DNA of 64,000 bases from Cycas panzhihuaensis (lineage: Eukaryota; Plantae; Cycadophyta): contig CM041465.1 of the NCBI GenBank assembly GCA_023213395.1, positions 59,341,741 to 59,405,740 of the forward strand, given 5' to 3'. This document shows, piece by piece, positions 1 through 45,193 of the stretch. The notes under the pieces were generated by a model. That model searched no databases, was not told the origin of the DNA, and saw only the letters and a list, made by a program, of their open reading frames with translations. How positions within the stretch are numbered: the stretch's first letter is position 1; every line of letters starts with the position of its first letter. The translations under genes and the position numbers were made by a program.

Positions 1-600
1 ATTTCTCACAAGGCTTGCTCTCCCTATTATCCCTAAGCCAATGGCCAAGTTGAATCATTCAACAAAACCCTCATAAATATTTTAAAGAAAACCATAGCCC
101 AATCTGAAGGAGATTGGTATATCTATCTCCCTTCTGCTCTATGGGCATATTGCATGTCTATCTGCATGACTACAGGAATGACTCCTTTCTTCCTAGTCTA
201 TGGAATAGAGGTGGTTCTCCCATTGGAAGTGGAGATTCCTTCCTTACGAGTCTCTCTCTGAGGTTTTGTTGATGAAGAGTCTATTCGCTAGGCTTGCCTC
301 TTAGACCTCGAGGCCTTAGATGAGAAGTGCTTGACCGCCTACCAAGTGAACCTCGCTTCTAAGGCCAGGGTATGTGGGACATATGATAAACACCTTCATT
401 CATACCCTTTACATCCCAGGGACTACGTCCTTAAGATAGAGTATCTCCATAACCACCTGACCAAATTCGAGCCCAAATGGGTTGGCCCCTTCGTCGTCCT
501 TGAGAGCCTCGGTAATGGCGCTTATAGGATAGCAACCCTGGAGGGTCTCAAATTTGAGAAGGTCATCAATGGGAAATTCCTGAAAAAGAATTATGTATGA
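1..600 (+). pseudogene. C-terminal integrase of a Tat/Ogre-type Ty3/gypsy pol (truncated by the window edge)
   Basis: Manual translation from 19 gives SPYYP*ANGQVESFNKTLINILKK...W..YLPSALWAY...TGMTPFFLVYGIEVVLPLEVEIPSLR. ORF 331-600 ends with the GPY/F motif KFEPKWVGPF...GAYRIATLEG...VINGKFLKKNYV*. There are in-frame stops and no chromodomain. Confidence 0.93.
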
Positions 601-1964
601 CTACTTCTTTCTTTGCACTCTAAAATGAGCCTAAACTACCACCCTAGGCATGTCTCCATTCCCCCTAGTCATAGGTGGAATGGCAATTTAGGGTAGCCTC
701 CTAGCTTCTTCTGGGTTCCTCTTGTGGAACCCCTTATCCCCCTCTCTTTGGGGGCCCCATCCTCCTAATTGGGTGTGTTGTCCTTGTCACTTCTGAGCCT
801 AGAAACATTCCCCAACTAGGATAGCATGTTGGAGTATCATCACTCTCTTTTTCATTAGTGCTTCCTTTGCATATCCCGCTATGCTCCTATGTGGACATGT
901 GTGCCTCCTTGATTCCTAGCCTCACATATACCTATGGTTGATGCTCTTGGTGATTGTGTATGCACCCTTTGGGAGTGTGGCCCTACATGAAAGGAAATGT
1001 GTGCAACTCAAATAAACCTCAAACAAAAACCATATGATAATCAACTCAAAACATCATGATCTATAGCTCCTAGTTCATATGTGCAACCTCACACAATATA
1101 CACACAAATATACATATAAAAGCAAATGCAACATCATCCATCATTGTGTGTCATCATACATAGCATCATATATCAAATGGGGTACCAATGGCCTCATCTA
1201 TATACATAAAATCATAATGTGTCATATCATACAAATGGTATGGTACATCATCCATGGGAAGCCAAATCCTTACAGGGAGGAGTATAATCATGTGGTGACA
1301 TATGGTGACTCCCTGGAGGTCTAGTGCTTTCCCAAATCAAAACTGGTATCTCTTATTCTCTAATGCTATCCTACTCCTAGGGTATCATCTCATGGTCTAT
1401 GTGATCCCTCTCCTAGGGACCACATGCCTCCCAAACTCCTCCTGTGCGTATGGTAGCTCCCTGCTTCGGTCCCCTTATCCTGAGGCCTCCTCAGGGTCGT
1501 CGCCACTGTATGAGTATGAGTCTTGCTCCGTGATGACCTCGACATCATCTGGTCTACCACCTAATCATATCAAGCCTGGATATAATCCCTCTCCCTCTCT
1601 ATCCTCCAGAGCATCTCCTCCACCCCTCGGAGCTACTCCTCCATCACCGCTACCATGATATCACTCTCTACATCACCACCTACTCCTCCTTGAGCCTCTA
1701 GTGCCTGGACCTAGCCTCATAGAGCATCTCTCTCTGCTATGGTCCTATCTAGCTTGCCCTGTAGTTGCCCTACTCATTCCTTGTGCTCCTGTGACTCCAC
1801 CACCCATATATCTCTGACCATGACTAATGGGGTAAATGCTGCCATATAGTCCCCTACCAACCGTGGCTCCTCTCTTACTTGGATGGGAGGTTGCCCCTTC
1901 ACGTAGGCCTAGGGAAACATCTCTTGGACTACCGCCTCGACCAAACTCCTAATATTCACTACTC

Positions 1965-2085
1965 CTGTAAAATCCAACATGCCATATGTTAGTATATAAT
2001 CCATACATACACCAAACAAACCAAACAAAATAAAGCAACTAGATATCTAGTGATCGAAAGGTGACAGGAAAAGGTAGCATCTCAC
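1965..2085 (-). other. Intron 2 of the PMD gene (121 nt, phase 1)
   Basis: Donor AAG|GTGAGA at 2085, a T-rich body (TTTGTTTGGTTTGTTTGG), and acceptor TTTTACAG|GA at 1965. Composition shifts sharply against the purine-rich flanking exons and the frame is preserved. Confidence 0.8.
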
Positions 2086-3304
2086 CTTATGGGACTATTG
2101 GCTCTCCAACTCAGATGATCACCTCCTCCTTAGGTCCTCCTCCCACCGCCGGTACCTCCTCATCCTCTGGTACCACCTCACCAATCACTTGGCCCACCAA
2201 GGCACCTCTACCCTCCTCCATTTGTGTTGTTGCTGCCCAGGCTCTCCCCACTATCCTCAACCTCTAGACTGGTATCTAGGGTGCTCCACTGCTCCCTGCA
2301 GTCCCTGAAGGACCCGCCTCTTCTCCTGTAGCTCTGGATAGTCCTGCCTCTCCTCCTATGGTCCTTGATGAACTTGTCTCTCCACCTTTTGTTATTTATA
2401 GGCTGGCCCCATCACCTTCATCATCATAATCTCCATCACCATGGGTACCTCCTACTCCTCCTACCTTATCATTACTATCCCACCTCACCCCTCTATATAG
2501 ATCCACTGTATAGTCTTCCATGGTAAGGAGGTCTAGTGATGTCGCCTCTATTGAGCGTTAGACGTGTGCCTGGTCCTCGATTCCCCCGAACCAAGTCTGC
2601 CACCTGTGGACCATGAGAGCCTATGCTGAGATCATATGTGGTCCTCCTACTAGTGCCACTGCCTTAAAATGATCCAAGAACCAACACTACAATAACATGC
2701 TATATGATAATCCTCCTCTCCCATCCACCCTAATGGCATCTAGCTGGGTGATCAAGTTCGTCGCTATTAGTGTAGCCCAATCTAACCTCTCCCCAGCCTC
2801 CCATCTCGTCATAGTGTCCATCCACCCGTCGGGTATATCCCTATAATTCTATTTCCAGGATATCTGAAATAGAATGCACAACATAATCAACTTCCTTACC
2901 AGAGAAATCCTAGACATAATCATACTCTACATAGGAATGCCTCTCCTCTCCTACCGATCTTGGCTTGTAAAGTAGGTTAATACCTCCCTGTGTTCCATGT
3001 CATTGTTAGGTAATACCCCTAGCGATGATGGTGATCCTACTATTGGTACCCCTAGGATCCTCTGGATGTCTCCTCGCGTGACAGTGACATCTCCCACTTG
3101 GGGGAGGTGGAATACATACCTCCGTTAATCCCAGTGTGAGACTATATCCACGAGGAGGCACTGATCAGACATATAATGTGGTGTCCAGATGGCCTTTAGT
3201 AGGTCACATCTCCCCAACACTCACCTGTCCCCATGGAACATCATCTCAATAAAACTAAGCATGGCCACCCCTATGTTCTCGCGGTTATCCAACGTAATGA
3301 CCAC

Positions 3305-3803
3305 CTACAAAACACCCCAAAAATCAGTCAAAACGCATCTAAACATGTCTGCCTACCTTCATGACTACCCCTCACTCCCTCCTAGTTGAGGTCTAGCACT
3401 CCTGCAGGCCATTCTTTGTGTTTTTAATTATTTGCCTCTACACTACGCTAAACTCTGTAGTACCATAGAGTTTAGCATATGGCTCCGCTTTGTTTTCAGC
3501 ACAAACTCAGTGGCCCTATGGCAAAGTTCGTAGCACCATGATCTTTGTCATGAGGCCAGTAATACCCCCACATTAAGGGGGGTTTTCCACCCAAAAAACT
3601 GAAATTTTTTTGCCCAAGTGGGACATGCTCATGCCCACTAGGACTAGGGTTACCTAATGCCTAGATCCTCCCTCTTGTTAGGTCTAATTCAGACTCCAAG
3701 AAATTGCCATTTTCCCATAAGGGGATAAAACTATATTAAAAAGCGTTAAAAAGTCATTAAACGTAAATGACAAGATGGGTTAGGAAAGGGGTGATCCACT
3801 CAC
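3305..3803 (-). other. Intron 1 of the PMD gene (499 nt, phase 0)
   Basis: Donor CCA|GTGAGT at 3803 follows ATG-GCA-GTA-GTA-AGG-CCA-GAT-CCA. The acceptor is T-rich, ...GGGGTGTTTTGTAG|GTG, at 3305. Splicing puts the ATG in frame with the PMD motifs. Confidence 0.72.
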
Positions 3804-3987
3804 TGGATCTGGCCTTACTACTGCCATCTCATCTTCCTGATCTCGCTAGCTATCTCTGTGTCCTGATCCGATGGTCTGATCTCTCTTTGTATGTCTCTGA
3901 AGTCAGGCGGCGCTCTACTGTATAAGGAGAAGGGCTTTGAATCGATTATGAGTCCATGAAAATGAATCCCATTTTCATCGAGTTTTC

Positions 3988-3997
3988 CTTATATAAG
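3988..3997. promoter_or_regulatory. Palindromic TATA box (CTTATATAAG) between the divergent PMD and RNase H ORFs
   Basis: A perfect 10-bp palindrome gives TATATAA on both strands. It is ~160 nt upstream of the PMD ATG (3827, minus) and ~40 nt upstream of ATG 4036 (plus). Confidence 0.5.
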
Positions 3998-4035
3998 CAG
4001 GGGCCTCGACGAGCACTTCCTCTGTTTCTCTCATC

Positions 4036-4980
4036 ATGATAGCCCTTGGGACCATCGCTCTCCCCTGATCACCTTTGCCTTCTGGGTCTATCTCCTATTT
4101 TACCTTTGTGGCTCTCTTTTCTCCTTACCCTTCAAGTGCATTTATGGTGCCCCTCTCCTTGGCCCTGAAAGGCCCCTTCTATCTTATTTTACGTGCCACC
4201 TCCATATATACTCGACTTTATACTCATTTGGCTTATTTTTCCATCCTGAACCCATTTTTGCTGCTTGTTCACGCCTCTACGGCTCCCAAAGGAAGCATCC
4301 CCTCACTTGGGACCGTGCGTCAGTTCCTTAAGCAAGCTTTGGCACCTTCAGAGGGGCCTATTCACTATTGGTTCATTCCTATCCACCAAATAGTCTTCTT
4401 CACCCTTGGGTAATCTCATCTCTATGTCTTCCTACCTTTCACGACCTTTGTTGATAGCCACTTGATCATGCCCTATGACTGTTTCACATCACCGAGTTCT
4501 TTTGATCCATTGATCTTATCAGCATTTTCTCCGCCAAGACCTTCACTCCTTTTTTCATGGCATTACTCATCTTTATCGATGGTGGAAGCCACGATAACCC
4601 AGGCCCTTCCACCACCACGTGGATTTTTTGTGACCCTTCTAGACACAACTTTATGCGTTCTAGGATCTTCCTTCCCGAGGCCACCAATAATGAAGCTAAG
4701 TACATAGCTATTATTGAGGCCCTCAATGATGTGCTTCACTTCCACCGTGGACCCATCATTCTCCTCTATGACTCTTAGGTTATGGTGTCCTATCTCACCT
4801 AGGTTTATCAAGTATGATGCCCATGACTGAGAGCCCTCACCTCGACCGCTAGATCCTTGTTAGCTTGTTTTTTCATCTATTGATATCCGACACATTCCTC
4901 AGACTCTCAACATCAAGGCAGATATCCTGGTTCATCTCATCCTTGAGCGTTGCCTCCCTCTCCTTAGTAACCCACCTTGA
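4036..4980 (+). pseudogene. Stand-alone additional (archaeal-type, aRH) RNase H ORF with an uncharacterised ~170-aa N-terminal region
   Basis: ORF 4557-4778 reads IFIDGGSHDNPGP...EATNNEAKYIAIIEAL...IILLYDS, and the downstream sequence reads HIPQTLNIKADIL (RNase HI D/E/D/D pattern, E decayed to K). Upstream ORFs 4075-4413 and 4462 onward share a frame with ATG 4036. A frameshift separates them from the aRH frame. Confidence 0.82.
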
Positions 4981-5388
4981 GAGGCTTGTCTGGTCACCCG
5001 AGTGCCTAAGTCTTGGGTCATCTTGTCTTTCACATCACGATCCATTCGCACCTCTGAAAATTGATCGTTAATGAGGCTAAACTATGGCAACCACCAGGTT
5101 TATTTTCCTTACTCTACTCTTAGCATCTCTCTTAGCACATAACTCCCACTAATGTTAACTTACCTTTTGTGCATAGCACCTTATTCATGACATCTGTCTA
5201 ATCTTATGTGTATTCATCACCACCCTTCCATTATACTCTTACGATGGGGGCATCCCCCTCATTCGCTATCATTGCCTGTTGTCTATACGATGACATATAG
5301 GCAGCCCTTATATTGTCTCACCCTTGCCTCTACACCCACGTGTTCCACCATGTCACTCATTGTCTCCCTTGGCTCGCACCATTGTTAT

Positions 5389-5391
<3 letters not shown>

Positions 5392-5434
<43 letters not shown>
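5392..5434. repeat. (TA)n microsatellite
   Basis: About 21 perfect TA units. Confidence 0.97.
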
Positions 5435-5437
<3 letters not shown>

Positions 5438-5501
5438 ACTAATATTGTGTTGCCAACATTCACCATTGTATTATGCCTTTGAGATGCGAGGCTCTGATAC
5501 C

Positions 5502-5511
5502 AAGGGGGCAG
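5502..5511 (+). other. Polypurine tract of the Tat-type element
   Basis: AAGGGGGCAG lies immediately before TGTTTCC, the putative LTR start. Confidence 0.65.
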
Positions 5512-8500
5512 TGTTTCCTAGCTATTAGGAATAGGTTCTTAGCAAGTTAACTCAGGTAAGTACAGGTATACTTCTATCCTTTTCCTTTGCTACTTTTATA
5601 GAAAGGTAAATCGAAGTGTCCTTTTATTGCATGATTGATTGATACATTTGAGTGATCATCTTGCATCCATTGCTTGCTCATATTGCTTGACATTCTTTCA
5701 GCCTATGACAATTTACAGGACATGTATTCCCATGGCACTTCACAAGCCTCCTATGCACCTCCATGTTGTCTTAAGTGTTACTTAGCCTGTGTGATCCATT
5801 CATACCCACTTTACCATATCATAGCTCTTAGCGTCATGCTAGGTATGATTGGTGTATTCCTATCTGTTTGTCAGGTTCCTGGGAATCTTACCTCCCTCGT
5901 ACTCCATTTGGTCTAGGTCATCCTCTCCATATGACTATCCCCAGCCACCTAGATAGAGGGTGAGCCCCTCCTAGGCTTGGGGTACCCTTATTTAGGTCTC
6001 CTAGGTACCTTTTCTTCTCTCATTTTTACTTTTGTCACCACACTGTGGAAAATGTCATGGTATTATGGTAAACTTCATGGTACTGCGAAGTTTTCCATGG
6101 GGCGACTATTATAAAATATTTTTTCTAATATGCCATGGTAAATTTCACTTTTTTTGTGAAATTGCCATGTGGATTAGTCATCCCTTGAGTCCTAGCCTAA
6201 CCCTAATTATCCAATTAAGCTAGGGTTAGGTATAAAACCCAAAAAGACTTTATTTTCCCTCCTCTTCTTCCATCTATTCTCCTCTTTTCTCCTACTTTCA
6301 CAAGTAGTTTTCTATAGGAACACCCTGCAACATTTGAGATACCTATATCTTAGCTTGAGATCTACCTTCTTCAACTCATATCCATGGTAGTAGGCTTAAG
6401 AACAAGCTTCTCCAAGCAAGGATGCACTTCAAGTCTCACCTCCACGTGTGATCATCAAGTTTCATCAAGATTCTCTTTAGGTTTCATAGCCCTTGTAGGG
6501 AGCACCACATATCTATCCTTTTCTACCATTTTCTCAGGCAGACTTATGACTAATCTAGCCTCAATAGGTACCACCTCATGTTTATTTTATTTTATTCCTT
6601 TTAGAATCCCTAAAAGAGATTGCATTACTTCGTATACCTTTCATTTTAGAGCTTTCTAGTATATACAAGAGGCATCCCCTCCATTCTTCTGTTTCTGTCC
6701 ACATTACCTTCCTTCTTTCTCCTAGTTTCTCTAAGGAGGCTATGAGGAGAGGTCCTTAAAGAGTGAGAGAAAGGAGCCAAGGTGTGTTTCACACCTACTA
6801 GGCCTGCTCCTCAAGGGCAACCCCCTTCTCCTCTTTTCCTCTATTTCTCTTGTGCCTTTCTTGTACTACCAGGGAGCTCTCGGAAGAAGGCCATTGCTGG
6901 TATTAGTGTACGCAACCTCACTTGGGAAGAGTTTCCAACTGTGAGTTATGTCACATATTAACTTTGGGTTTTGGCTTGGTCAAAGTTACAAAACGCTGCA
7001 CATTGCAACATTTGCAACATAGATAGTATTTACAAACCCTATGATATCTATTTCTCCCATTGTTTGCTACCATTAGGCTATCCCAATTTACTGCTCTTGT
7101 GCTTAGAGGTAGCTTGGAGGTGTATATATTAGAGGACTAGCCATTCCAAGGCTAACCATCCACGTCCTTTGTCTTGTATTGCTTGTATAAAGGAGATTAG
7201 AAGTTGTTCCTTAGTTGGAAATTTACTTGATTTAAAGTGATATGCTTACAACATTCTTAGCATTTTGCATCTACGTATATATATATTTGTTTGGCACTCT
7301 AGTAGCCCCTTGGATAAGGGTAGATAAACTTTGTGATTGCAGGCTTCACCATGTCACTCACAAAGAAGGAAGAACCACTTCAATCTAGGTATGTCTCTTA
7401 CCCTTCCTTTCCTTAGTCATTTCTGCTTCTAGCATAGTCTTTCATTTTACCTTTCTTGCCTTTTCTTTTCAATTCAAGGAAGGTAAGGGAGCCCCAACTC
7501 CATTGCTCTACACTACCCATGCATTGGGAGAAGGAAAGGGACAAGCAATCATGGCATAAGATAGCATCCTTGTTTTAGCTGCATAACTTTCCAGGTACAC
7601 TGCCCTCCTTTTTTCATAACTGTTTCCCTTTTCTTTTCTTAAGTTTGCTTGCTTGCATAACCAAAACATAAAAAGAAAAGAGGAAAGGAACTTATTTACA
7701 CCTACCTTTTGTATATGTATGCTATGCTTGCATCCTTAGGAAAGAGCATGAGATAGGACTATCCCCTCTTTCTTTCCGCTTGATTGCATACCACCCTTTT
7801 AGGCTTTACATCTTTAGTATGCATGTGCGTGCTTGCATGGTTTTCCTTCTCTATGCCCTTTTTCTATTCAAAGTGAAAAGAGAGTAAGGATGTGCATTCA
7901 AGGGAAAATAACAGAGTATATTTGTTATTTTTATATACGTCTTCCATTTCTTATCTACAAATACTGCTAGGTGGATATCATTTCACCCTCATATACCAAA
8001 AGTTGAATGTTTTACTTGTGAGATGGTGAAAGCTACTTTTTCCATCATCCTTTATCCCCTCCAAACTCACTTTAGGTGGGTTAGCCTAGGAGGATTCGTC
8101 CTCTAGCACATCCTCCTCTAACCCCATTGTACTCACCTTGCCTAAATCATATTGACACCTTCTCCTTTAGGTTGGTCTCATGCGTGAGGTGGTTATTCAA
8201 CACCACCCTTACAAGTGTGTACCTCCCGTGCCACTTGTCTACGCACATTCTATTCATATTTCTTCACTTCCCATGAGGATCCATTCCCTCGTTTGGTATT
8301 TCCCTTCCCTTCCGGATATCCAAGGGTAGGAAGACCTACATCTTGAGGTTACTCAGGAAACCAAGGATATCCCTCATATGTGCTACCCCCAAAACCAAAA
8401 TCAAGTTACCTAGAGAGAAGTTGTGTGCCATTTGTGGGTCCCGAACCTATGTTCCAATGCACAGATGCCCTGTGTGGGTGATTTCCTTACTTATTGGATT

Positions 8501-8669: not shown

Positions 8670-11387
8670 TACAAAACCACTCATCATGGTCATTTTAAGT
8701 TCCAAGTAATGCCTTTTAGTCTTTATAATATCCCCTACCTTGTAAGTCTTAATTAATAAAATTTTTACTACCCACCTTAAAAAAATTATCTTTATTTTTT
8801 TGATGATATACTACTTTATAGTTCTTATTTAGCTTATACCTTCATCATCTAGAAATTATTCTTTAAATTCTACACTAATATCAGTTGTATGCTAAACTTT
8901 CAAAATGTGAATTTAGTAAATTTGAATTATAATACTTAGGTCATATCATTTTATCAATAGGTATACAAGTAGATACTAATAAAATTTTAATTATCTCCAT
9001 TTGGTCAACCCCTATAAACCTCACCTAACTACATGTCTTTCTTGGCCTCATAAGATTTTACTACAACTTTGTTTGTAACTATGCTTCTCTTACTATCTCT
9101 CTAAATAACCTCTTATATAAAGGCTCATTCTAGTGGTCCCTAATTATAGAAGTTATCTTTAACTAGCTAAAAGTAGTTATGAACTCAACTCCTATCTTTA
9201 CTACTTTAAATTTTTTATAACCCTTTCAAATTGAGTGTGATGCTTTAGGATTTTGCATAGGAGCACTCCTTATGTGAAATTTTCATCCTATTACCTTTGG
9301 AAGCCATAAAGTTAAGGATTATGAATGTCAACTATTAACTTATCAAAAGGAAATGAAAGTGATTTTGCATGTAGTAGATAAATGACAATAATATCTCTTA
9401 GGCTCCATATTCATAATCCTCACCAATCACCATAGTCTCTATCATCTTTTGGATCAACCTGTACTATTAGAAGAACATGTTAAGTGGATTAACTACTTAT
9501 AAGTATTCAACTTCACCATATCCTATAAGAAAGGTAAATATAATAGTATTTTCGATACTCTATCATGATTACCTTTTGATTCAAACATTCCTACTCTTAC
9601 CATTCATGCCATCTCTAAATCCCATCCTATATGGTTAAAGGATTTGGTAATAGAAAACTTGTCCCAATTAAACTATCTATAGTGGGTCATAAAAGCCCAT
9701 AACCAAAAGGACTAGTCAACCTATAATAATTATGTCCTATTCATATTTTTGTCCACTTTGTCTCCTCCTTCATTCCTTGCATCTTATTTAAATACCATTC
9801 TATTCCTTTAGGTGGTTATTCTGAGTTTGATAAGATATATCAACATATTCTTGCAAGATTATTTTGGCCTCTTATTAAGTTAATCATCCTTACCTTTATG
9901 TCTAAGTGTGTCACTTATCAAAGAAAGAATATGGACATTAAGGATCTACTAGGTCTTCTCTAGCCCTTGCACATTCCCTAGGGTCATTGGAAAGACATAG
10001 CCATGGATTTTATTAAATGTCTACTAATATCTATTGGATCTTATTCAATCTTAGTTATCATTAATAGACTAACTACGTATGCCTATTTCCTTCTAGTACA
10101 CATTTCATATAAGGCATCCTGTCTTACACACCTTTATACTCTATTCATCTTTGCCTATATAGGTTTCCCTCATCTATCCTTTATGACCAAGACCCTAAAT
10201 TCATTAGGTCTTTCTATCAAAAACTCTTTCAAGCATTAGGAACCTCATTTAACATGAGCATGACCTAGTATCCATAAACTAATGGCTAGTTAAAAGTTAT
10301 AAATAAAACATTAAAAACTTATTTACATTATTTTACTTTTAGCCATTAAGCTAAGTAGATTTCCTAGCTATTATTTTTGAATATTAGTACAACTCATCTC
10401 ATCATTTAATTATACGTATGTCCTTATTCATGGCTCTTTATGGGTACCTCTACCATCCCACCAAACTATAGCTACTAATCTTTGAACTACTTCTATCTAA
10501 CAAAAACTTCAAGATATGGACCAAATCCTACACACTCTTAAGTTAATCCTAGAAAATATGTAGAATCATATGAAGTAACTTATCAATCATCATTATTTTG
10601 ATCATTGTTTCTTTGTTGGTGACCTAGTATTCCTTCATCTTCAAACTTATAAATAGTATTCTCTCAAGAGCTATACAAGCCACATGTTAAGCCCATACTA
10701 CTATGTCCTATATAAAGTTCTACAAAAGATTGGTCAAGTTACCTACATACTCAAACTCTCATGGGATATAAAAATTCATAATATATTCCATGCCTCCTAC
10801 TTAAAGAAATAACTTAGCAAGAATAGTATTCTCTAGACCACTCTTCCCATCATTAATGATGAGTAGTTACTCATAATTCCCCTAGTTATATCATCGTTAA
10901 TTTATAATACCACCTTCAAAACTAGACCATCTCTAAGCATTTGGCATAGTGGGTCAGTTGTGATTTAGAGGAAGTAACATGGGAATTAGATGCTTTCCAA
11001 GTAATACCCTCATCTTCTAAGCTTTGAGGACTTACCATCTTAAATGGGGGGCACTTATTATATAATCATATGCCACTATTAAAATTAAGTTGTTCATTCA
11101 TGTGATTAAGGTGTGTGATGGTTAGAGTTTCTTCTAAACTAGTGTGCATGGGGCCACTTATATCCTCTAATAGGAATGAGGGTTAATTTTCCTCCAATTG
11201 AATTCTATAAGTAAGGGCCATACTTGCCTATTTAAGGCCCAACATTTGTAAAGGAAGGTTACATCTAGAGTTTATTTATAATATCATACTATAATATGAA
11301 TTTAATGATCTTTACTATACTTTCAAGTGTCCCCTTTTATAAATTTTGGTGCATAAATCAATAATCTGTCATTATGCTCTTGTAACA
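8670..11387 (+). mobile_element. 3' half of a degenerate chromoviral Ty3/gypsy element: RT-RNaseH-integrase-chromodomain, PPT, 3' LTR 11056-11387
   Basis: HHGHFKFQVMPFSLYN and FFDDILLYS (RT), PFQIECDALGFCIGA (RH), WKDIAMDFIKCL (INT, ORF 10003), IHNIFHASYLKK and W....EEVTWE (chromodomain). The PPT AAATGGGGGG is at 11042-11051. The LTR runs TATTATA...TGTAACA, a decayed TGTTACA inverted end. Confidence 0.88.
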
Positions 11388-23924: not shown

Positions 23925-26900
23925 GGAAAATGTGTAATAAGATGAATATCTTCTCCCATAACTGAGACTTCTACTATGAGGATAAGATCTATCAATATGA
24001 GATGGCCTTCCTCTTTCTTTATGAGGAGGTGGCTAATCCCTTTGTCTAAGATTTAGAGGATGAATATTTTCCCTTTATAGTGGTATGTCCCTTTAGCAAT
24101 TGGGACAACATTGATGTGGCCCTTGTTGTCTTTCTTCACTTAGATATCTAGTTTTCCTTAAATCTTTTTTATTAGCTCCTTGTCTTTGGTGAGGAGCTTG
24201 GTATCTTGGATGTCTTTATTGGTGTGGCATATGTCTAGGGTTTCTACTCTTTTCTTTTAGAGACTAATCCCTAGATTTAGAAGTCCTTGCTTGAGCATGT
24301 GGTTATGTCCTTATCTTAGTGGCAAAAGCATGCTCAAGTGATTTATTAGATGCCTTCTTCTCTTCAACAACTATTAACATGGCACTCAATTATTCTATTT
24401 TGAGGGTGCTTAAGTCTTTGGAGACTTCAATGTTGGTTGTGACTCTTTCAAAGCTTGGTACGACACTAACACATCATAGAATCCTTTCAATAACTCTTTG
24501 TTCAATTAAGGTCTCTCCAAGAGATCTCATATGATTAACTAGGTATTGTACCTTTGTTATAAAGTCAGTAACTAATTTATTTGAATTTATCCTTAGGTTT
24601 TCAAATTTACTCCTAAGGGTTTGAAGCTTTGATGAAGCCACTTCTTTATAAATTAGTTGTAAAGTATCCCATACTTGCTTTGATGTGGTTGCTTCACTCA
24701 TCCTTGGAAAGATTTTATTATCAATAGCACAAAATAATAATGCTAGAGCTTCATTGTCTTTCTTAACTATTTCTTTAAATACCCTCTTTTATTCATTTGT
24801 GGCTTGGTCACCTAGATCTATATAGACTGTATGAACTATGTCCCATAATTCTTTTGACATAAGGATAGATTTTATTTTTCTACTCTAAATTAGAAAATTT
24901 GTCCCATCGAATATTGGAATAGTTATATTTCCTATGCTTGTTGTCATGTTACTCAACTTGGGTTATGATAGTAATCATTTAGTAAATAAAATATGTTTAT
25001 CCCACCAAGGTTTTAGTTAAATGAATAAAAAAGAAAATCAAGTTTAACCCAAGGTTTTATAAGTGGACTTAGTCCCTAAATGAGGTTTGCTAGGCACTAA
25101 GTTTAAGTTTCTCCTAGGATAACCTTTGGTTGCTATCCTGTCTAGTGGTGCTAGCCCATATATGGCAAAATAGGGACCCAATATACTGGTACATGAGCAC
25201 TATGCTTTATATACCTCAATACGTGGGCTACTAAGAAGGCTTTTACACTCCCTTGAATTGTTGACCCACCTACACAAAACTTATGCCTAGTGATAGATCT
25301 AGCAGTGAAGGTTCTTGAACCAAGGTACTTACCCTCTCTAGTGTTGAGAATACAAGGTCCCAACCCTTTAACCACCACTAAGATCTATTACATTCTCACA
25401 ACTAGTTACAGAAATTGAAACTTAAAATTACATGCAAGTTCTAAAATAAGAGATTATACAATAATATGGAAATAAAAGCTAAACATCATATATACACCCA
25501 ATATAACATGGTAAAACCTTAACAGTGTGCTAGGGAAACATCCACACAAGAAAGATATCGATCTTTATTACTGTAGAATGGAGAAACAATACATCTCCAT
25601 TACAGAGTACTCTTAGGAACAACAACTAATCGCCGCCCTCATCACAGTATATTGCATTACATTACAACATAATAAGAAAAGCCCTAAAACAGGCTATATG
25701 AGAGGAACATCCAAGACCTAAATCTCAATCATAGAATCTAGGGTATTTGTATCAAATGACCCTACTTCTCTTTACAATTTAATAAGGTTTACAGGGCTAA
25801 TTTTTTGGGTTGGGGGCTATCGCCCCTAAACCTCCTCTTAGCGGGGGGTGTTCCACACCCCCATACCCCCCAGCCAAGGGGGGGCCCCGCCCCCCTTAGA
25901 ACCCCCCGAGAAAGATTGCGGGGGGAAACTGCACCGAAAACACACTAAAATTTTAACCCTAAAATATTATTATCATAATATCTAACATCCAGGTCTAGCC
26001 TTAGTCTCTAAACACCACAAATGGAAAGGTTTTGTACCTTAGCCTACCACTGAATACACCTGATAGCCAAAGGCTTTCCTCATCTAATATGAGTAGGCCA
26101 AGTGGCATGTATGGGGTGGTAACTTCAAGGGTCCTAATCATTCCCCTTATAAGGCTAGAAAAAAATGAGGTTTAATTTAGGTAATTTGAAAATAAAAAAT
26201 ACCCTTCCCCTTTGAAGTATTATATTCCTTTGTGAAAAATAATAACTTTTTCCTTTAAAAAATATAAAATAAAGATGAAAATTTTTCTAAATGAAAGCCA
26301 AGTAAGCTCCTTTAATCAAGTTTTATAAGCAAGTTGTGTTGAGAATGGAGGAGGGTAATTATTCTTTAATAATCATAAATAAGTGGAAGTAATTTCTTGA
26401 TCAAGTGCAAAAGGACTTTAAATAAGTTTTAGATTTGATAAAAGTAAAAAATATGATAAGAAATACCTGTTTACCAAATTGAATGAACAAGAGGGGCTCC
26501 TTTTTCTCTAGAGGCCCAAAATTAGTCTAAGTAAGCTATAAAATGGCTTAAAAACTCAATAAATACTAATAAATATTATTGATAATTAGTATTATATAAA
26601 TATCAAGTGGAATATATTCACAATTATAAAGAAATTTGGCTCAAAAAGCTTAAAGAAAGTCTAATTAGGACTTGAATGAAACCTCAACTCTAGGAGCTTT
26701 GAAAGCCTATAAGAAAACTTTAAAATTTATAAGTAAATATGTCAGACCAAAGAGAAATGAGTCAGATTCTCAACGGAACTGATGGATCTAAAATCTGATA
26801 TGAATCAGTAAAGTTATATCGAAAAAGGTAAAATGTACTTTTTATGTTAATAACTCAAAAAAGATTTAGAAAAATGATTGAATTTAACTGATTAAAAATA

Positions 26901-34400: not shown

Positions 34401-37400
34401 TAAAGAATGTATGAAGAAGGACAATGAAGTATTAGCATTAATTTTCTATGCCTTATAAGACCATATCTTTCTAAGAGTTAATGAGCCATTAAAGTCCAAA
34501 GAAGCATGGGACATGTTACAACTTATCTATAAAGGAGTAGCCTCATCAAAATTCCAAATACTAAGGAGTAAATTTAAAAACTTGAGGACATTGCTTAATG
34601 AGACCATCAATGAGTTCATAACAAAAGTCTAAGATCTTATGAATCAAATTAGATCTCTTGGAGAAACCCTTATTGAATAAAGGGTTGTAGAAAGGATACT
34701 TAGGTATGTTGGTAAAGTTAAAAGGTTTGAGATGGTAGCCACAAGTATAGAAGTCTCTAAGGACCTAAGTACCTTGAAGATTAAATAATTAAGTTCCATG
34801 TTGATGGCTTTTGAAGAAAAGGAAAGCATAAATAAATCCTTAGAACGTGCTTTTGCAACAAAGGATAGGATAAAATCTAATATCCAAGTTGAAAGCTCAA
34901 GGATAAGGAATCAATCCCTAAGGGGGAGAGATAGGAATCCTAGAAAAGAGATATACTAAGATCATCAACTTGGATACCAAGCTCCTCATGAAATATATCA
35001 AGGAGCTAATCAAAGATACCTAAGTCAACATCGGTATCAAATTCAAGAAAGACATCAAGAAGCTAGTTAATGTTGTCATAACTACCAAGGCCATAATGGT
35101 TTTCAAAGGCCTAATTTAAATTATCCAAGCAATATACAAAGAGACAATTAAGGCCCATACTTGGAAAGGGGTAGTATACTCTCTATGGATAGAGGACACC
35201 CTAGAAGTAAGAGTCTAAGTCAAAAAGGAAGGGATCCAATCCATTGTATATTTTATAACAAAGTTAGCCATACTAAAGATAGATGCTTTGCTAAAAATGG
35301 CTCTCTAACAAGAGGAAGTGCTACTGCAGTCATTGAAAATAGAGAGAATAATCATATATTTTTAGAAGGCTTTATTGACCATAAAAAATAAGATTATTGG
35401 TATATAGACTCTAGTTGCTCCACATATATGACACATAAAGAAGAGATAATCCAAACTATTATTAGGTCTAGGAAGGGCACAATCATATTTGGTGATGATA
35501 CATTATATGAATCTAGTAGAAGGGGTAAATTCATTATCATAATAGATTCAACAAAAAACATATATCTTGATGATGTTCTCCACATACCAACTCTTAAGAA
35601 AAATCTCCTATCTATGGGACAAATAATAGAATAGGACTATAAGGTTGTGTTTGACAATGGTGAATGTAGTATTAAGGACAAAAAGAAAAATAAAGATGTT
35701 ATTGCTAAAGGAAAGATGATTAGCGATAGACTCTTCAAGTTAGTCATATCCCCTTTGGATAACTACATGTTAAAGACAATAATTAAGATAGACAGTGACA
35801 TGTGGCATAAAAGGTTTGGCCACTTAAACTATGGAAGCTTGGCCCTTATGAAAAGAATGAATATAGTTGAAGGTCTACCACAAATTGAGGCTGATAAGGA
35901 CATTTGTAAGGGATGCCTCTTAGGTAAGCTACATAGAGAAAGTTTTCCTGATGGAAGCTATAGAGCTAAGGGGCCACTTCAATTAATCTACATAGATCTT
36001 TGTGGTATAATGGACGTCCTATCTCTAGCTAGTGTAAAGTATTTCTTCACCTTTATTGATGATTATACAAGAAAGACATGGGTCTATTTTCTAAAATTTA
36101 AGTCATATGCATTTCAATGCTTTATGGATTTCAAAACATTTATGGAGAAGCAAAGTGGCCATAAGATACTTTCTTTAAGATTAGATAATAGGGGGGAGTT
36201 TATTTCTAATGACTTTAATACTTATTATACCTACCATGGCATTAGAAGGGAATATATAAACCCCTACACACCACAATAGAATGGGGTTACTAAATGCAAA
36301 AATTGCACCATAGTTAAAATGGCTAGATGCATGATCAAAGATAAGAAATTAGAACATGAATTTAGAAGAAGCTATGAATACTATAGTTTACCTCCTAAAT
36401 GGGTGTATCACCAGGGCCCTTAGGTGGATAATACTAGAAGAAGCATGGACAAGTTACAAACCTAACGTTCATCACTTGAGAATTTTTGGATGCCTAGCCT
36501 ATGCCCACATTCCAGAATAAAAAAGGACTAAACTTGATGATAAGAGTACTAAGTGTATATTTATTAGGTATAGTGATATATCAAAATTATATAATGTGTA
36601 TGACCCAAAGGAAAGAAAGGTTATTATTAGTAAAGATGTATCTAAAGAAGATGATTACTATCAATTAGATTATATCTAAGATAAACAGAAAAATATTATA
36701 ATCAACTTTGATCCATCTCCAAGTTCCATATATATGCCACTTAGATAGGATTCATGGTAAAATGTTGGTGTATTAAGGCCAAGTGATAAGGAAACCTCCA
36801 CTCAACTTTAAAGGTTTCCCAAATAGGTCCAAAGAAGCCATGACTTAAACAACATATTCGATAATAACTTTGACAGGAGATTTACTTACTCAGGGTAAGT
36901 TAACTTCACCCTTATGAATAAAGTGATGGAAGTCAATCAACCTCACACTTTTGAAGAGGTAGATATTCATGATAAATGGAGAAAAGATATAGGAGTATAA
37001 TTTTATAGTAAAAAATAATACATGGGAACTCGTTAATCTTCCTCCCAACAAAATAGCCATTGGAAACAAATGGGTCTATAAGACCAAGTTCAAATTTAAT
37101 GGGTACATTGAAAAACATAAGATTAAACTTATTACCAAAGATATATTCAAAGAGAAGTCATAGATTATAATAAAACCTTTACCCCTATTACTTGGATGGA
37201 GACTGTTTATATGATATTAAGTCTAATAGCCCAAAAAGATTAGGATGTTCACCAAGTGGACATCAAGAGTGCCTTTCTCAATGGATACATTGAAGAGAAA
37301 ATGTATGTTCAACAACCAAAAGGTATTAAAATCAGGGGGGAAGAAAATAAAATGTATAAACTTAGAAAGGCACTTTATGGTTTGAAGTAAATACCTAGAG

Positions 37401-38774: not shown

Positions 38775-40553
38775 ATGGATTTATAAAATAATTAAGATTA
38801 ATCAAATACTCATATCCAAAGTTATAGCCATTTGAATTTATAGTAATAAATTTTAAGCCCTAAAAAAAGTGATAGATAATAGACCAAAACTAAATTCCTT
38901 ATAATTTTGTAATTTTGCTCCAAAAATTATGGTATAACCATTTAAAAGTTTCAAAATAAGATTTTTCAACTTAAATTCATAATTATATTTTTGAATTTCT
39001 TCTATTTATACTCTTAAAAATGCAAATAATTCATATACTAAAAAAAAATCTCTAATACCACTTAATGTGATCTTAAATTGGATCCACTTTTTCAAACATA
39101 AAAGAAAACTGAAATGAAAATTGAATAACAAAAATTTCCCTAGGCATAAATTACTAAATCAAATTAGGTTTAAACCAAAAATAAAACTTACATAATGAGT
39201 TAGGGGGCTCTTTTATTTATAGGTGCTAATAAGGCTCCCTATTAAAAAAAAACTTTAATAATAATATTAATAATAAAATATCAACTTCCTAATATAAAAA
39301 ATTAACTTCATATTAATTTTAAAGTACTATCTATAAAAATTAACTTTTAATAAAACACCACTTCTCTTTAATAAAATAGGATTGGTAGATAATCTCTAGT
39401 ATGGTCACTAGAGATGTAATCTTGAGAGGGTAATGAGACTCATACAACTTAATTAAAGACTGAAGACTAAAGGCCCAAGTCAATGAAGGAAGGTCCAACA
39501 ACCTCTCTTAAGATTCTATGCACCTCAAGGGCATAGATATAGGTGTGAAGGATGTGCAAAAGAAGAGGATCTCATATGCTAAAGGAGAAAGAGGTGAATG
39601 GAGATGTTGCAAATAAAATACAAGATATCTATCTAAGCTACTCAACAAGTATAAAACTCATAAACTATACTTAAAAGAAAACATCAATCTCACATGAGTA
39701 AAGCAAAATAAATACCTAGTTATGCTAACCCTCTTAGAAGAGGAATACAACACCCAAAAAAACCCTAAATATTAAGAGAGTCACCAAGGCATGAATGGCC
39801 TAAATATTATTGAAATCTTATGATCTTATCCATTATTCTACTTTCCAAAATTAATGACCTATCTTAAACCCACCCACCTAATGGATATGTACATTGAACT
39901 AAACTAGACTAAAGAGGGGTGATTATTTAAGAGAAGGAAACTATATGGAGCTAAATCATGGGGTAGAGACAGTAATCTAGTGATCAAGCATTTGGAAACA
40001 AAATATACCAATCCTATCCTAAGTGTATATGGTGGCTAAGGTACTACTTGAATTTAACTCTATATAATATACTCCTTAAGGAAGAAATAGATAAAAAATA
40101 ATAATTTTAATAGGTCTAACAATGTTCAATTAACTTCTAGTCATAATAGTTTTCCATAATTGACCTATATAGATAGCAACAAGAGTAGCCTAATCTTTAG
40201 GTGTAAGACTAGTATAATGGCTGATAATAAAATCCAACTTGTTACTAACTAGTTGCTCCTCTAACTAGGTGACATTATATCCCAAATAGGCAAAAGAGAA
40301 AATAAAAAGTACTATATATAATCTAATATGTGATTACATTTTGTATTCATACAATAATTAAATATAACTAATATACAAACCTATAACCCTTGGGTTTAGG
40401 GACTTGCAACTCTGTGTGGCAATCCCATTTTCACCATAGATCTCTTATGCAATAAAGGCCCTCTATCTAAGACCTAATTCTTTTTACTTCTTTTATTTTA
40501 GTGATTTAATTAAGTTATTAAAATACAAAAAGATAATAGGACAATATACCTCC

Positions 40554-40592
<39 letters not shown>

Positions 40593-40635
40593 GAAGTATA
40601 TGCATATACTTCTATGTGTGTGTGTATGCATATAC

Positions 40636-40672
<37 letters not shown>

Positions 40673-40717
40673 TACACACACACACACACACACACACATA
40701 TATGTATGTATGTATGC
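40554..40717. repeat. Compound microsatellite (GT)n-(TA)n-core-(TA)n-(CA)n with a palindromic core
   Basis: Read directly. It contains the perfect 26-bp palindrome ATAGAAGTATATGCATATACTTCTAT at 40590-40615. Confidence 0.95.
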
Positions 40718-42789: not shown

Positions 42790-45193
42790 TTGAAATTCTT
42801 GATTCTAGGAAACACAACATTTGTGGCTTTTATGTGAGTTGTTACCAAAGCATAGCTTGCTAACCTTGGTGGAGGCTTTCTCACTTTACTTAACTTCTTG
42901 AGGACTAGTTTTATGCATGCGCTTACTTTACCACTCCTTCATGGATTTCTTTTACTTGTGAGCTTGAAGTCTCTTTTACTAAAGATCGTGGTATCATTAT
43001 AACTCCCACTTCTTGACTGTGTGGTATAACTTCATTGAAGATCATATCTCAACCATTTAAAACTTAATTTGTGTCAAAGTTACACAACCTATAATCTTTA
43101 GTATCTTTACAAAATCTCAAAAAATTACAACATTCACTGTTTACATCCAAATTTAAGCATTTTTCTTTGGGAATACAAACATAGGCTTTCCACCCAAATA
43201 TCTTTGAGTGTGCAACTAAAAGCTTATTACCACCCGATGCTTGCATAATCTTCATATTCAATACCTTTTCTAATAATATATTGTTGATGCAGGCTATTAT
43301 AGATATTATTTTAACTCTGAAGTAATTATCAAGTGTTATATACTTTAACATGTGTCTTATATTTTCTATCAATGTTGTGTTATTCTAGCCACTCTATTTT
43401 TTTTAGGAGAATATGGTATGTTTATCTACTTGACTATGCCATTATTTTTCATAAATTTTTGTTAAGTCCTTTAAGATATACTCCCCATTATTGTCACTTT
43501 GGAGAATCTTTACCTTCTTCCTAATTTAATTTTCCACCAATACCTTAAATGCTATGAACTTTTCTAAAATTTTTCATTTTTTTTAATGAAATAAACAAAA
43601 ATCATTTTAGAAAAAGCATCAATGAAGGTGAGAAAACAATTAACACTACCACGTCATATGATCTTCATTAGTTTACATATATTTGTATGAATAAGCTCTA
43701 ACAAATATTTGGTTCTCTTAGCACCCTTTTGTGGAAATTCTTGGCTATGTTGCTTACCATAAATATACTCTTGGTAAAAATTTATCTTTCCTCCATTTTC
43801 AAGTTCTAAATCAAGAATGAGCTAGCATTGATACATTTTCTTCAAACCTTGTATATTGAGATGATGAGGTATATAATTCCATATGTTAATTTTATTTCTT
43901 TCAACCACATTTATACTTTTAATTGTAATTAATGGGGAATAAAGAAAATTGTACAAGCTCCCCATAGCTATTTGCCCTTTATTAATGACCAACATGAACT
44001 TTTCCTTATGAAATTAAACTTTAAAACTACCATTCAAGATTTTTTTAAATGATCAAAGATACTTTGTCAAGATCAAGAATATAAAGTATATATTTTATAG
44101 TTTTTCAAGCAATATTTTCAAGATAAATAGAAATAACACCCTTACATTCAAAATTATGAGTTGCTTCATCATCTAAGTAGACTTCTCCATTAGAATTTAA
44201 CTACTTATTGGTAGAGAAATACTCTTTATGTGGTGTTAACATAAGAAATACAATAGTTATTTTATAGTCATAAGCATTACTATAAGAAATAAATCTCTAA
44301 TGCCACCAAATTTATTTTCTTATGGTGCTTTCTTATGTTCTTATATCTTTTTTAATAAATCTTTCTCATGGTGCCTAGCCATCTTATGGTAGTAGTGCAC
44401 TTCTTTCTTCTTCTTTCACTTACTAGAAGATTAACATGGGCCACAAGGATCTTTTTCCCTTTGATTCTTTGAAATTTAACCTAAGAGTAGTAATGATTCT
44501 CTAGTGCTTGAGCCAAGCATACTCTTTCCTCTTATCCCCTCTTGAAAAATTAGACCATTAACCTTGCTCATTGTAAGCTAATCCATTTTACTTCTTAGAG
44601 AGACAATCAAATTCCTATATAAGTTTAAAAGACTTCCTAATAATATCATCATAATACCATCTTTAACAATCTTTGAAGCAACTATAATTAATGGATCCAC
44701 AAATGATTTCATAATATTGATGTTAGTTGTAATATTCTCTCCTTCATTTATCTTCAAGGTGAAGAATTCTTTTCTTGAAATTATGTAAAGTATCCCATAT
44801 ATCTTTTGAAAATGCTACATGGCCAACATGGAGCAACTAGGAATCCTTAAGGTTAAGCAAAACTTCTAGCAGTGCTTTTCATCCTTACTCTTGTATTCTC
44901 TAAACTTTGGATTTGCTTTAGTTAGCATCTCTAAATCTCCATTTGTAATGCTCCATAGATCCATTCTATAAGAACTATATGTATTTTAAGCTTATAAAGA
45001 GAACACGTTTCTCCATTAAACTTCTCAATAATGTGTTGTTATACCAATCTTATAATTATTTCTATACAATACCTAAACAAATAACTTATATATTTTAAAA
45101 AGCTTTCTCATGGTCCCATTGAATTAGTAACTTTTTCAATTCAAACTTTGGAAACTTTTAATTCTCTAAATTAGAAACGAGGCTCTCATACCA
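42790..45193 (-). mobile_element. Truncated Ty1/copia element D (PBS, gag to integrase)
   Basis: The minus-strand PBS TGGTATGAGAGCC is at 45181-45193 and gag starts FNGETCSLYKLKI at ~45020. Integrase motifs are FLTFIDAF (~43620) and ORF 43064 (KIFGWKAYVCIPKEKC..LD....C.FL...DTKDYRL). No RT is visible. Confidence 0.82.

What the first reader, a model, noticed from the sequence alone, without database searches (positions are those of the whole stretch)
1288..3827. Retroelement-borne gene keeps two introns, consistent with its antisense orientation
Seen: canonical GT-AG introns (3803-3305 and 2085-1965) and a 24-nt first coding exon (MAVVRPDP). The exons sum to 1920 nt, or 640 codons, with no net frameshift. 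The ORF track misses the gene because of many C>T-type stops. Established: sense introns tend to be lost through the RNA intermediate, while antisense introns survive reverse transcription. Inference: this was a real, separately transcribed ~640-aa protein (PMD, acidic/Gly linker, coiled coil) that was functional at insertion.
Basis: partly seen in the sequence, partly recalled or inferred. Interest (0 to 1): 0.75.

Follow-up and report, generated by a model that had tools for sequence, protein, structure and literature searches.

The report
Spliced antisense gene in plant retrotransposon
A decayed copy of a very abundant plant jumping gene carries, on its reverse strand, a gene for a plant-mobile-domain protein that is likely split by two introns, and this protein would likely have helped the element resist silencing by its host.

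Summary
The observation largely holds. On the minus strand lie a 24-nt first exon, two GT-AG introns (3803-3305, 2085-1965), a plant mobile domain (Pfam PMD, 35.4 bits, cut-off 34.9), an acidic/Gly linker and a helical last exon. Integrase, an archaeal-type RNase H (aRH) and a purine tract lie on the plus strand, so the gene is antisense in a Tat-type Ty3/gypsy element resembling gymnosperm TatIII. Tens of thousands of related contigs cover the region in four public runs. Across copies the ATG-to-donor stretch is a conserved island, and divergent relatives keep the acceptor-1 and donor-2 signatures. Not shown: any spliced read, and the C-terminal end. '640 codons' is no evidence, since any in-frame stop gives a multiple of three and coding signal fades below about 1540. 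An antisense PMD ORF in TatIII is published (2015). What I did not find in print: its exon-intron structure, a helical exon behind intron 2, and aRH as a separate ORF beyond the antisense gene. Spliced antisense genes are known in other LTR retroelements (HTLV hbz). Likely role: nuclear anti-silencing accessory factor (inferred). New variant of a known kind; interest 0.45.

The parts
1..600 (+). 3' end of pol: integrase core end and SH3-like C-terminal part, stop at 598-600
   Evidence: Pfam SH3_Tf2-1 E 7.4e-5 and rve_3 E 0.013, both below curated cut-offs; 3 stops in 199 codons
1000..1287 (-). T-rich (40% T) stretch downstream of the gene, likely 3' UTR
   Evidence: composition; inference
1288..1539 (-). 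claimed end of exon 3; reading frame and true stop not established
   Evidence: 4 further in-frame stops, codon signal lost or shifted; no homolog tested positive
1540..1964 (-). exon 3, coding part: predicted long helices (coiled-coil-like)
   Evidence: codon bias; AlphaFold2 single sequence mean pLDDT 64.7, helices 33-61, 65-80, 98-108, 112-129; heptad score highest in residues 106-140; no database homolog
1965..2085 (-). intron 2, 121 nt, phase 1, GTGAGA...CTAAC...TTTTACAG, 45% T
   Evidence: relatives P0010 and P0011 end in G-E-I at the donor position
2086..3304 (-). exon 2: PMD (about 3178-2507) followed by acidic/Gly-rich linker; 13 stops
   Evidence: Pfam PF10536 35.4 bits; 17 protein hits, fragments 43-64% identical all in this frame
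3305..3803 (-). intron 1, 499 nt, phase 0, GTGAGT...CTGAT...TTTTGTAG
   Evidence: relative P0014 reads ..ILQ|VVI across the acceptor; donor invariant at the 15% level across copies
3804..3827 (-). exon 1 coding part (8 codons)
   Evidence: conserved island 3794-3830 across copies, ATG invariant at the 15% level, no indels
3989..3995 (-). TATA-like box about 160 nt upstream of the ATG
   Evidence: sequence; function inferred
4036..4950 (+). decayed sense ORF with archaeal-type RNase H (aRH, about 4563-4880), head to head with the PMD gene; frame differs between its N-terminal part and aRH
   Evidence: Pfam RVT_3 22.8 bits, cut-off 21.6; PDB RNase H 3u3g E 9.8e-10, 4e19 E 1.8e-9, Rv2228c 3hst E 6.8e-8
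5502..5511 (+). short purine-rich tract (PPT candidate) directly before TG at 5512, the likely start of the 3' LTR
   Evidence: sequence; no second LTR in the window, so the LTR is inferred

Best explanation
This is a decayed copy of an antisense plant-mobile-domain (PMD) gene inside a high-copy Tat-type Ty3/gypsy retrotransposon, likely spliced at two GT-AG introns from its own promoter, and its protein likely acted as a nuclear accessory factor that counters host silencing of the element. Shown: antisense position between integrase and aRH, PMD, splice-like signals, family-wide presence and conservation of the ATG-donor island. Inferred: the integrated copy is transcribed on the minus strand from a TATA-like promoter near 3990; the spliceosome removes 3803-3305 and 2085-1965; the mRNA gives a PMD - acidic linker - helical (coiled-coil-like) protein of about 555-639 aa. 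The genomic RNA is the plus strand, on which the intron ends read CT..AC and are not splice sites, so every new copy inherits both introns. Function by analogy: host PMD-C proteins bind promoter motifs and oppose Polycomb silencing, and their domain is predicted to resemble the transposon anti-silencing protein VANC; the helical part would mediate dimer or partner binding. Split odds: gene structure about 0.8, protein made by active ancestors about 0.8, anti-silencing role about 0.45.
For: Splice signals at unique positions and frame logic. PMD above cut-off. INT, aRH and purine tract on plus. High copy: 83,062, 72,768, 69,734 and 24,421 contigs laid in 4 of 4 runs, all 30 bins covered; 4 of the 32 listed records cross acceptor 1 unspliced. 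On 3765-3870 (1056, 1265, 217 and 5 contigs; all 17 variant rows shown) 9 of 21 exon-interior positions vary at 15% or more but 0 of 9 in ATG + GTGAGT (Fisher p 0.029); depth peaks at the donor, the 18 listed loose ends of the three large runs all fall at 3792-3794 or 3829-3834, no indels; a nearby out-of-frame ATG varies in 30-51% (ratios). Relatives 57-63% identical keep the exon-2 frame; P0014 keeps the acceptor-1 signature and P0010/P0011 end in G-E-I at donor 2. Literature: PMC4408406 section 6; bioRxiv 10.1101/2024.09.27.615353 Discussion; PMC7264820 on Grande gene23, own promoter, nuclear.
Against: No spliced read: the 5 contigs of the one run guessed to be RNA include two that cross donor 1 unspliced; they may be DNA or the sense genomic RNA. 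The 33 intronic positions 3765-3797 also show no 15% variant, because divergent contigs are clipped there, so the ATG/donor contrast is not specific on its own, and edge effects shape the depth profile. Only 15 of 396 joints were listed, so intron-less copies are not excluded. Donor 2 and acceptor 1 rest on 2 and 1 translated relatives, acceptor 2 on the window alone. Exon 3 has no homolog (13 candidates, none passed; no match to P0018 or P0021). No full-length relative found. The exon-2 model is low confidence (pLDDT 49) and gave no fold match (0 of 35 rows at E 0.001), so VANC likeness is untested here. Function is analogy only.
Confidence: 0.68

Rival explanations
1. Intron 1 is not used: translation starts at the in-frame ATG at 3346 (or a later Met) and the element carries an unspliced PMD ORF, with 'exon 3' a separate ORF or frameshifted remnant.
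For: An in-frame ATG lies 14 codons before exon 2; relative P0014 also has a Met 13 codons upstream with several matching residues; Grande gene23-type aORFs are described without mention of introns (0 occurrences of 'intron' in PMC7264820).
Against: The conserved island begins at the 3827 ATG and ends 10 nt past a GTGAGT donor; both acceptors are the only TTTTN[CT]AG sites; two relatives' ORFs stop just after G-E-I at donor 2; no indel at 20% or more is listed in 1288-3304 (7 rows, all elsewhere).
Confidence: 0.12
2. The gene is a passenger: a host or MULE PMD gene captured backwards with its introns, carried along without use to the element.
For: PMD occurs in host genes and MULEs (PMC5418596 passages); gymnosperm genic PMDs exist (Cryptomeria NAM-PMD); antisense capture keeps introns whether or not they work.
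Against: Relatives only 43-64% identical keep one frame over exon 2; start and donor are conserved across copies; antisense PMD ORFs persist in Tat lineages III and V; the nearest named genic PMDs are only 21-24% identical.
Confidence: 0.1
3. The antisense transcript matters mainly as RNA: it pairs with genomic RNA, makes siRNA and limits copy number; the protein is secondary or acts as a repressor, as HBZ does for HTLV-1.
For: Proposed for 3' antisense ORFs in PMC7264820; hbz RNA and protein both restrain the sense programme (PMC10186651 passages); MAIN/MAIL1 were first described as silencing factors.
Against: Coding frame, start codon and splice sites are what is conserved; the family reached very high copy number.
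Confidence: 0.06
4. The gene is sense to a second, minus-strand non-autonomous element whose primer-binding site is the perfect 12-nt initiator-Met-type PBS at 5502-5491; the plus-strand pol pieces belong to neighbours.
For: The PBS-like 12-mer lies 9 nt from a CA that could end a minus-strand LTR, and a purine tract lies on minus at 749-737; short contigs cannot prove linkage, and cover is thinnest at 4348-4554.
Against: No LTR pair on either side; INT and aRH both on plus with the order known for TatIII; one contig joins 5119 to 5502, lacking the PBS-like piece but keeping the purine tract; listed contigs chain 3841-4318 across the promoter/aRH-ORF border.
Confidence: 0.04

Closest known systems
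Antisense PMD eORF of gymnosperm Tat lineage III / TatIII (Ustyantsev 2015, PMC4408406; Neumann 2019, PMC6317226)
   Same: Antisense PMD ORF in the 3' part of a Tat-type element; aRH downstream of integrase.
   Different: The paper's text describes a PMD-only ORF for lineage III and aRH at the C-terminus of Pol, with no introns mentioned; here there are two likely introns, a helical third exon, and aRH in a separate ORF beyond the antisense gene. Its figures were not visible to me.
PMD-CC eORFs of Ogre (Tat IV, V); PMD-A clade (Ikeda 2017, PMC5418596)
   Same: PMD followed by a coiled coil, retrotransposon-encoded; antisense 3' position in lineage V.
   Different: Angiosperm elements, aRH between RH and INT; clade of this PMD not determined.
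Grande gene23, RIRE2, Retand TRP28 aORF-3R (PMC7264820, PMC11963269)
   Same: Antisense accessory gene between pol and 3' LTR; gene23 has its own promoter and a nuclear product.
   Different: Different domain (TRP28/SMC-like); no introns reported in the texts read.
HTLV-1 hbz (PMC10186651) and Botrytis Boty brtn (Zhao 2011; multi-exon structure recalled, paper not held)
   Same: Spliced antisense gene carried by an LTR retroelement.
   Different: Unrelated proteins; hbz is driven from the 3' LTR, this gene likely from an internal promoter.
Arabidopsis MAIN/MAIL1/MAIL2 (PMD-C)
   Same: PMD; source of the functional analogy (promoter motifs, anti-Polycomb).
   Different: Host genes; a soybean MAIN-LIKE protein is 24% identical over 174 columns; no function tested here.

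Membership tests
PMD (PF10536) | Pfam score above the gathering cut-off | tested here: met
   35.4 vs 34.9 bits, profile 12-240 of 347
PMD clades A1/A2/B/C | phylogenetic placement | not tested
   only fragments and three named distant proteins were held; no tree built
Tat clade (Ty3/gypsy OTA) | additional archaeal-type RNase H | tested here: met
   RVT_3 above cut-off; best PDB hits are RNase H 3u3g/4e19 and Rv2228c
TatIII | aRH located after integrase | tested here: met
   INT ends at 600, aRH at about 4563-4880, same strand; linkage in one element inferred from short contigs
TatIII | aRH at the C-terminus of the Pol protein (as worded in PMC4408406) | tested here: not met
   integrase frame stops at 598-600 and aRH lies 4 kb later, beyond the antisense gene
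TatIII | antisense 3' PMD eORF | tested here: met
   described
TatIII | RT/RH/INT phylogeny; tRNA-Arg or tRNA-His PBS; 5-bp TSD; paired LTRs | not testable with these tools
   RT, 5' LTR and PBS lie outside the window and no genome is held; features from PMC6317226 supplement row
TatIII | gymnosperm host | not tested
   host not named; inferred from the arrangement only
U2 spliceosomal introns | GT-AG ends, branch-like motif, T-rich acceptor | tested here: met
U2 spliceosomal introns | splice signals conserved across copies | tested here: inconclusive
   donor 1 and ATG conserved (with clipping caveat); acceptor 1 and donor 2 from 1 and 2 translated relatives; acceptor 2 not tested
U2 spliceosomal introns | removal shown in RNA | tested here: inconclusive
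   only 5 contigs from one run guessed to be RNA, none spliced
VANC-like anti-silencing factors | fold likeness to DUF1985 and effect on silencing | not testable with these tools
   model too poor

The most novel reading that the evidence does not exclude
Gymnosperm Tat retrotransposons amplified with their own three-exon anti-silencing gene: a PMD-coiled-coil factor that ORF-based surveys saw only as a PMD fragment because introns hide its first and last exons, placed head to head with a detached aRH gene that shares its promoter region; such spliced cassettes would be the source from which host PMD regulators and NAC-PMD-type fusions were domesticated, and a driver of giant conifer-type genomes.
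Probability: 0.25. Interest if true: 0.72.

Novelty: new variant of a known kind. Interest (0 to 1): 0.45.

Why it matters
Plant surveys of extra ORFs use uninterrupted ORFs of 250 codons or more (PMC6317226) and found a 3' antisense eORF in only 18% of 39 TatIII elements; a 2020 review asks for antisense and spliced transcripts to be looked for. A spliced model means these accessory genes are under-counted and mis-modelled, puts the PMD + coiled-coil architecture earlier than the angiosperm Ogre lineages, and gives concrete junctions to test. If the protein opposes silencing, it bears on how retrotransposons reached huge copy numbers in giant plant genomes and on whether host PMD regulators came from retrotransposons.

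Tried and rejected
No genome is held for this window. No RNA holder listed. Word-index protein searches: exon 2, none of 7991 candidates; exon 3, none of 13; profile A1, 2 of 7996, both already known. DNA loci of relatives: 0 confirmed of 97 (viral), of 122 and of 89 (metagenome). No second copy in the window. PDB sequence search with A1: one row at E 0.85, chance level. AlphaFold2 on exon 2 with stops as X: pLDDT 49; Foldseek 0 of 35 rows at E 0.001; VIA searches not run on so poor a model. An apparent likeness of exon 3 to the Cryptomeria NAM-PMD tail was not borne out. Exon 3 was not compared with the ESM Atlas, so distant look-alikes stay open. An env-like sense splice that would remove the whole PMD gene and join pol to aRH was considered; no TTTTN[CT]AG acceptor and no GTRAG donor near the integrase end on plus, so unsupported. 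No PMD tree: too few full-length sequences. '1920 nt = 640 codons' rejected as evidence. Earlier-findings look-ups by place, by first word set and by sequence were empty. Papers not held: Steinbauerova 2011 and Zhao 2011; the first may already describe introns in PMD eORFs.

Full report
Setting. The window is a repeat-filled plant-like sequence without long ORFs (15 ORFs of 100 aa or more, longest 214 aa); 4 of 11 of these scanned are retroelement remnants. No genome is held.

Observation. Exon 1 (3827-3804, MAVVRPDP), intron 1 (499 nt, GTGAGT..TTTTGTAG), exon 2 (1219 nt), intron 2 (121 nt, GTGAGA..TTTTACAG) and 677 nt to the TGA at 1288 are as stated and sum to 1920. TTTTN[CT]AG occurs only at the two acceptors in 2.9 kb (0.51 per shuffle), each with a CTRAY motif 22-27 nt upstream; intron 2 is 45% T against 20-23% in the exons. 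GTRAG is common (10 seen, 8.8 expected). Exon 2 has 13 stops in its frame against 33 and 26 in the others. The codon-position signal moves from the exon-2 frame to the exon-3 frame across intron 2, whose 3n+1 length reconciles them. Below about 1590-1540 the signal leaves that frame and four more in-frame stops occur before 1288, so the end is open and the 3n sum proves nothing. PMD scores 35.4 bits against a cut-off of 34.9. Exon 3 (1962-1540) is predicted as long helices (pLDDT 64.7) but has no homolog.

Orientation. On plus lie the end of an integrase (1-600; weak Pfam hits), an archaeal-type RNase H at about 4563-4880 (RVT_3 above cut-off; PDB E 1e-9) and a short purine tract before TG at 5512. 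The second LTR is not in the window. On plus both intron ends read CT..AC. The gene is therefore antisense to the element, between integrase and aRH.

Family. Fifteen of 24 listed runs hold part of the stretch. At 80% likeness 83,062, 72,768, 69,734 and 24,421 contigs were laid on 1-6200 in 4 of 4 runs (three read to about 46%), covering all 30 bins, thinnest at 4348-4554. Four of 32 listed records cross acceptor 1 without a skip. None of the 15 joints listed (of 396) removes an intron exactly; the rest were hidden. The 7 indel rows lie outside 1288-3304. On 3765-3870 (all 17 variant rows shown) 9 of 21 exon-interior positions vary in 15% or more of depth, 0 of 9 in ATG plus GTGAGT (p 0.029), and the out-of-frame ATG at 3832 varies in 30-51%. 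Depth peaks at 3801-3804, 3.4-5.4 times the 3785-3788 bin and 6.2-8.5 times the 3833-3836 bin, and the 18 listed loose ends of the three large runs (188 more hidden) all fall at 3792-3794 or 3829-3834: divergent copies match only from just before the ATG to 10 nt past the donor. Caveats: 3765-3797 also shows no variant row because poor matches are clipped, and a 106-nt stretch has edge effects. The run guessed to be RNA gave 5 contigs, none spliced.

Protein relatives. A full HMMER scan gave 17 hits. Twelve are fragments 43-64% identical that fall in the exon-2 frame (one has a second piece in another frame); 7 of the 10 looked up are single Logan records, the others a JGI protein, a soybean MAIN-LIKE and a Cryptomeria NAM-PMD protein. 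P0014 reads ..ILQ|VVI at acceptor 1; P0010 and P0011 end in G-E-I, matching the window's G-E-M over the donor-2 bases, and stop within three residues. This is compatible with, not proof of, conserved splice sites. Seven of 12 covered stops face Q, R or W. Decay is similar in integrase, PMD and exon 3 (stop shares 0.30, 0.30, 0.35) and higher in three small samples (0.62-0.71), which fits a gene intact at insertion but has little power.

Mechanism. Shown: position, strand, domain, splice-like signals, family-wide conservation of the start-donor island. Inferred: transcription from a TATA-like box at 3995-3989, removal of both introns, a PMD-linker-helical protein of about 555-639 aa; the plus-strand genomic RNA cannot splice these introns, so they are copied. 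The rule is not absolute in reverse: Ogre keeps a partly spliced sense intron. Function by analogy: Arabidopsis PMD-C proteins associate with promoter motifs and oppose Polycomb, their domain is predicted to resemble the VANC anti-silencing domain, and the authors raise an anti-silencing role for TE-encoded PMDs. My exon-2 model, made on the decayed copy with stops as X, was too poor to test this. I put the anti-silencing role at about 0.45.

Known and new. PMC4408406 (passages, section 6 and supplementary legends read; figures not visible) reports an antisense 3' PMD eORF first appearing in gymnosperm Tat lineage III, PMD alone there, a coiled coil added in lineages IV-V, and aRH at the Pol C-terminus. 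PMC6317226 (passages, one supplementary row) defines TatIII by aRH after INT and found eORF-3'R in 18% of 39 elements with an unspliced-ORF method. PMC7264820 (parts 1-2 of 3, covering the main text) reviews antisense aORFs and asks for spliced antisense transcripts to be sought. PMC5418596, PMC11963269, PMC9289625, PMC12786077 and PMC10186651 were seen as passages; bioRxiv 10.1101/2024.09.27.615353 as passages and Discussion, supplements unseen. Ten full-text searches listed no paper on introns in retrotransposon PMD genes, but Steinbauerova 2011 and Zhao 2011 are not held, and figure 2B of PMC4408406 may show the aRH order. Spliced antisense genes are established for HTLV hbz and, by recall, for Boty brtn; eight unchecked notes of this scan describe intron-bearing antisense genes in fungal and animal gypsy elements, which lowers the surprise but is not evidence.

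Verdict. Real feature; a spliced, three-exon reading of a known TatIII-type antisense PMD gene, with a hidden helical exon and a detached aRH ORF. New variant of a known kind; interest 0.45.

Noticed in passing
window 5491-5502: A perfect 12-nt initiator-Met-type primer-binding sequence (identity recalled) on the minus strand sits directly before the purine tract of the plus-strand element; TatIII elements use tRNA-Arg/His. One contig lacks 5120-5501. Possibly a captured leader of another element. Unexplained.
   Followed up: partly
window 4036-4950 (+): aRH lies in its own decayed ORF whose first ATG is about 40 nt from the PMD gene's TATA-like box, head to head; how it would be translated is unexplained.
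   Followed up: partly
window 624-638 and 5070-5084: A 15-nt motif (14 of 15 identical) follows both the integrase stop and the aRH ORF; weak joints 638-5069 in 3 of 4 runs (side 21-22 nt) may be copies without the PMD-aRH cassette or an artefact of this repeat.
   Followed up: partly
window about 9160-10810 (+): A second, AT-richer gypsy pol remnant (RT_RNaseH E 6.5e-14, Integrase_H2C2, SH3_Tf2-1), probably another element.
   Followed up: no
window 24474-24788, 35635-36279, 43064-43384, 47877-48191: Copia-type gag, integrase and SH3 remnants and a zf-RVT remnant; 4 of 11 ORFs scanned had hits.
   Followed up: no
proteins P0017/P0021 and P0005/P0018: Cryptomeria LOC131063168 is a NAM (NAC) + PMD fusion. 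P0018 joins 100 residues shared at 93% with P0019 (RRM-like, resembling ALKBH8 by recall) to a PMD. Both suggest PMD exons being recruited behind host exons.
   Followed up: partly
window 5392-5435 and 40544-40715: (TA)n run inside the element's 3' region; a compound (GT)n/(TA)n/(AC)n palindromic microsatellite.
   Followed up: no
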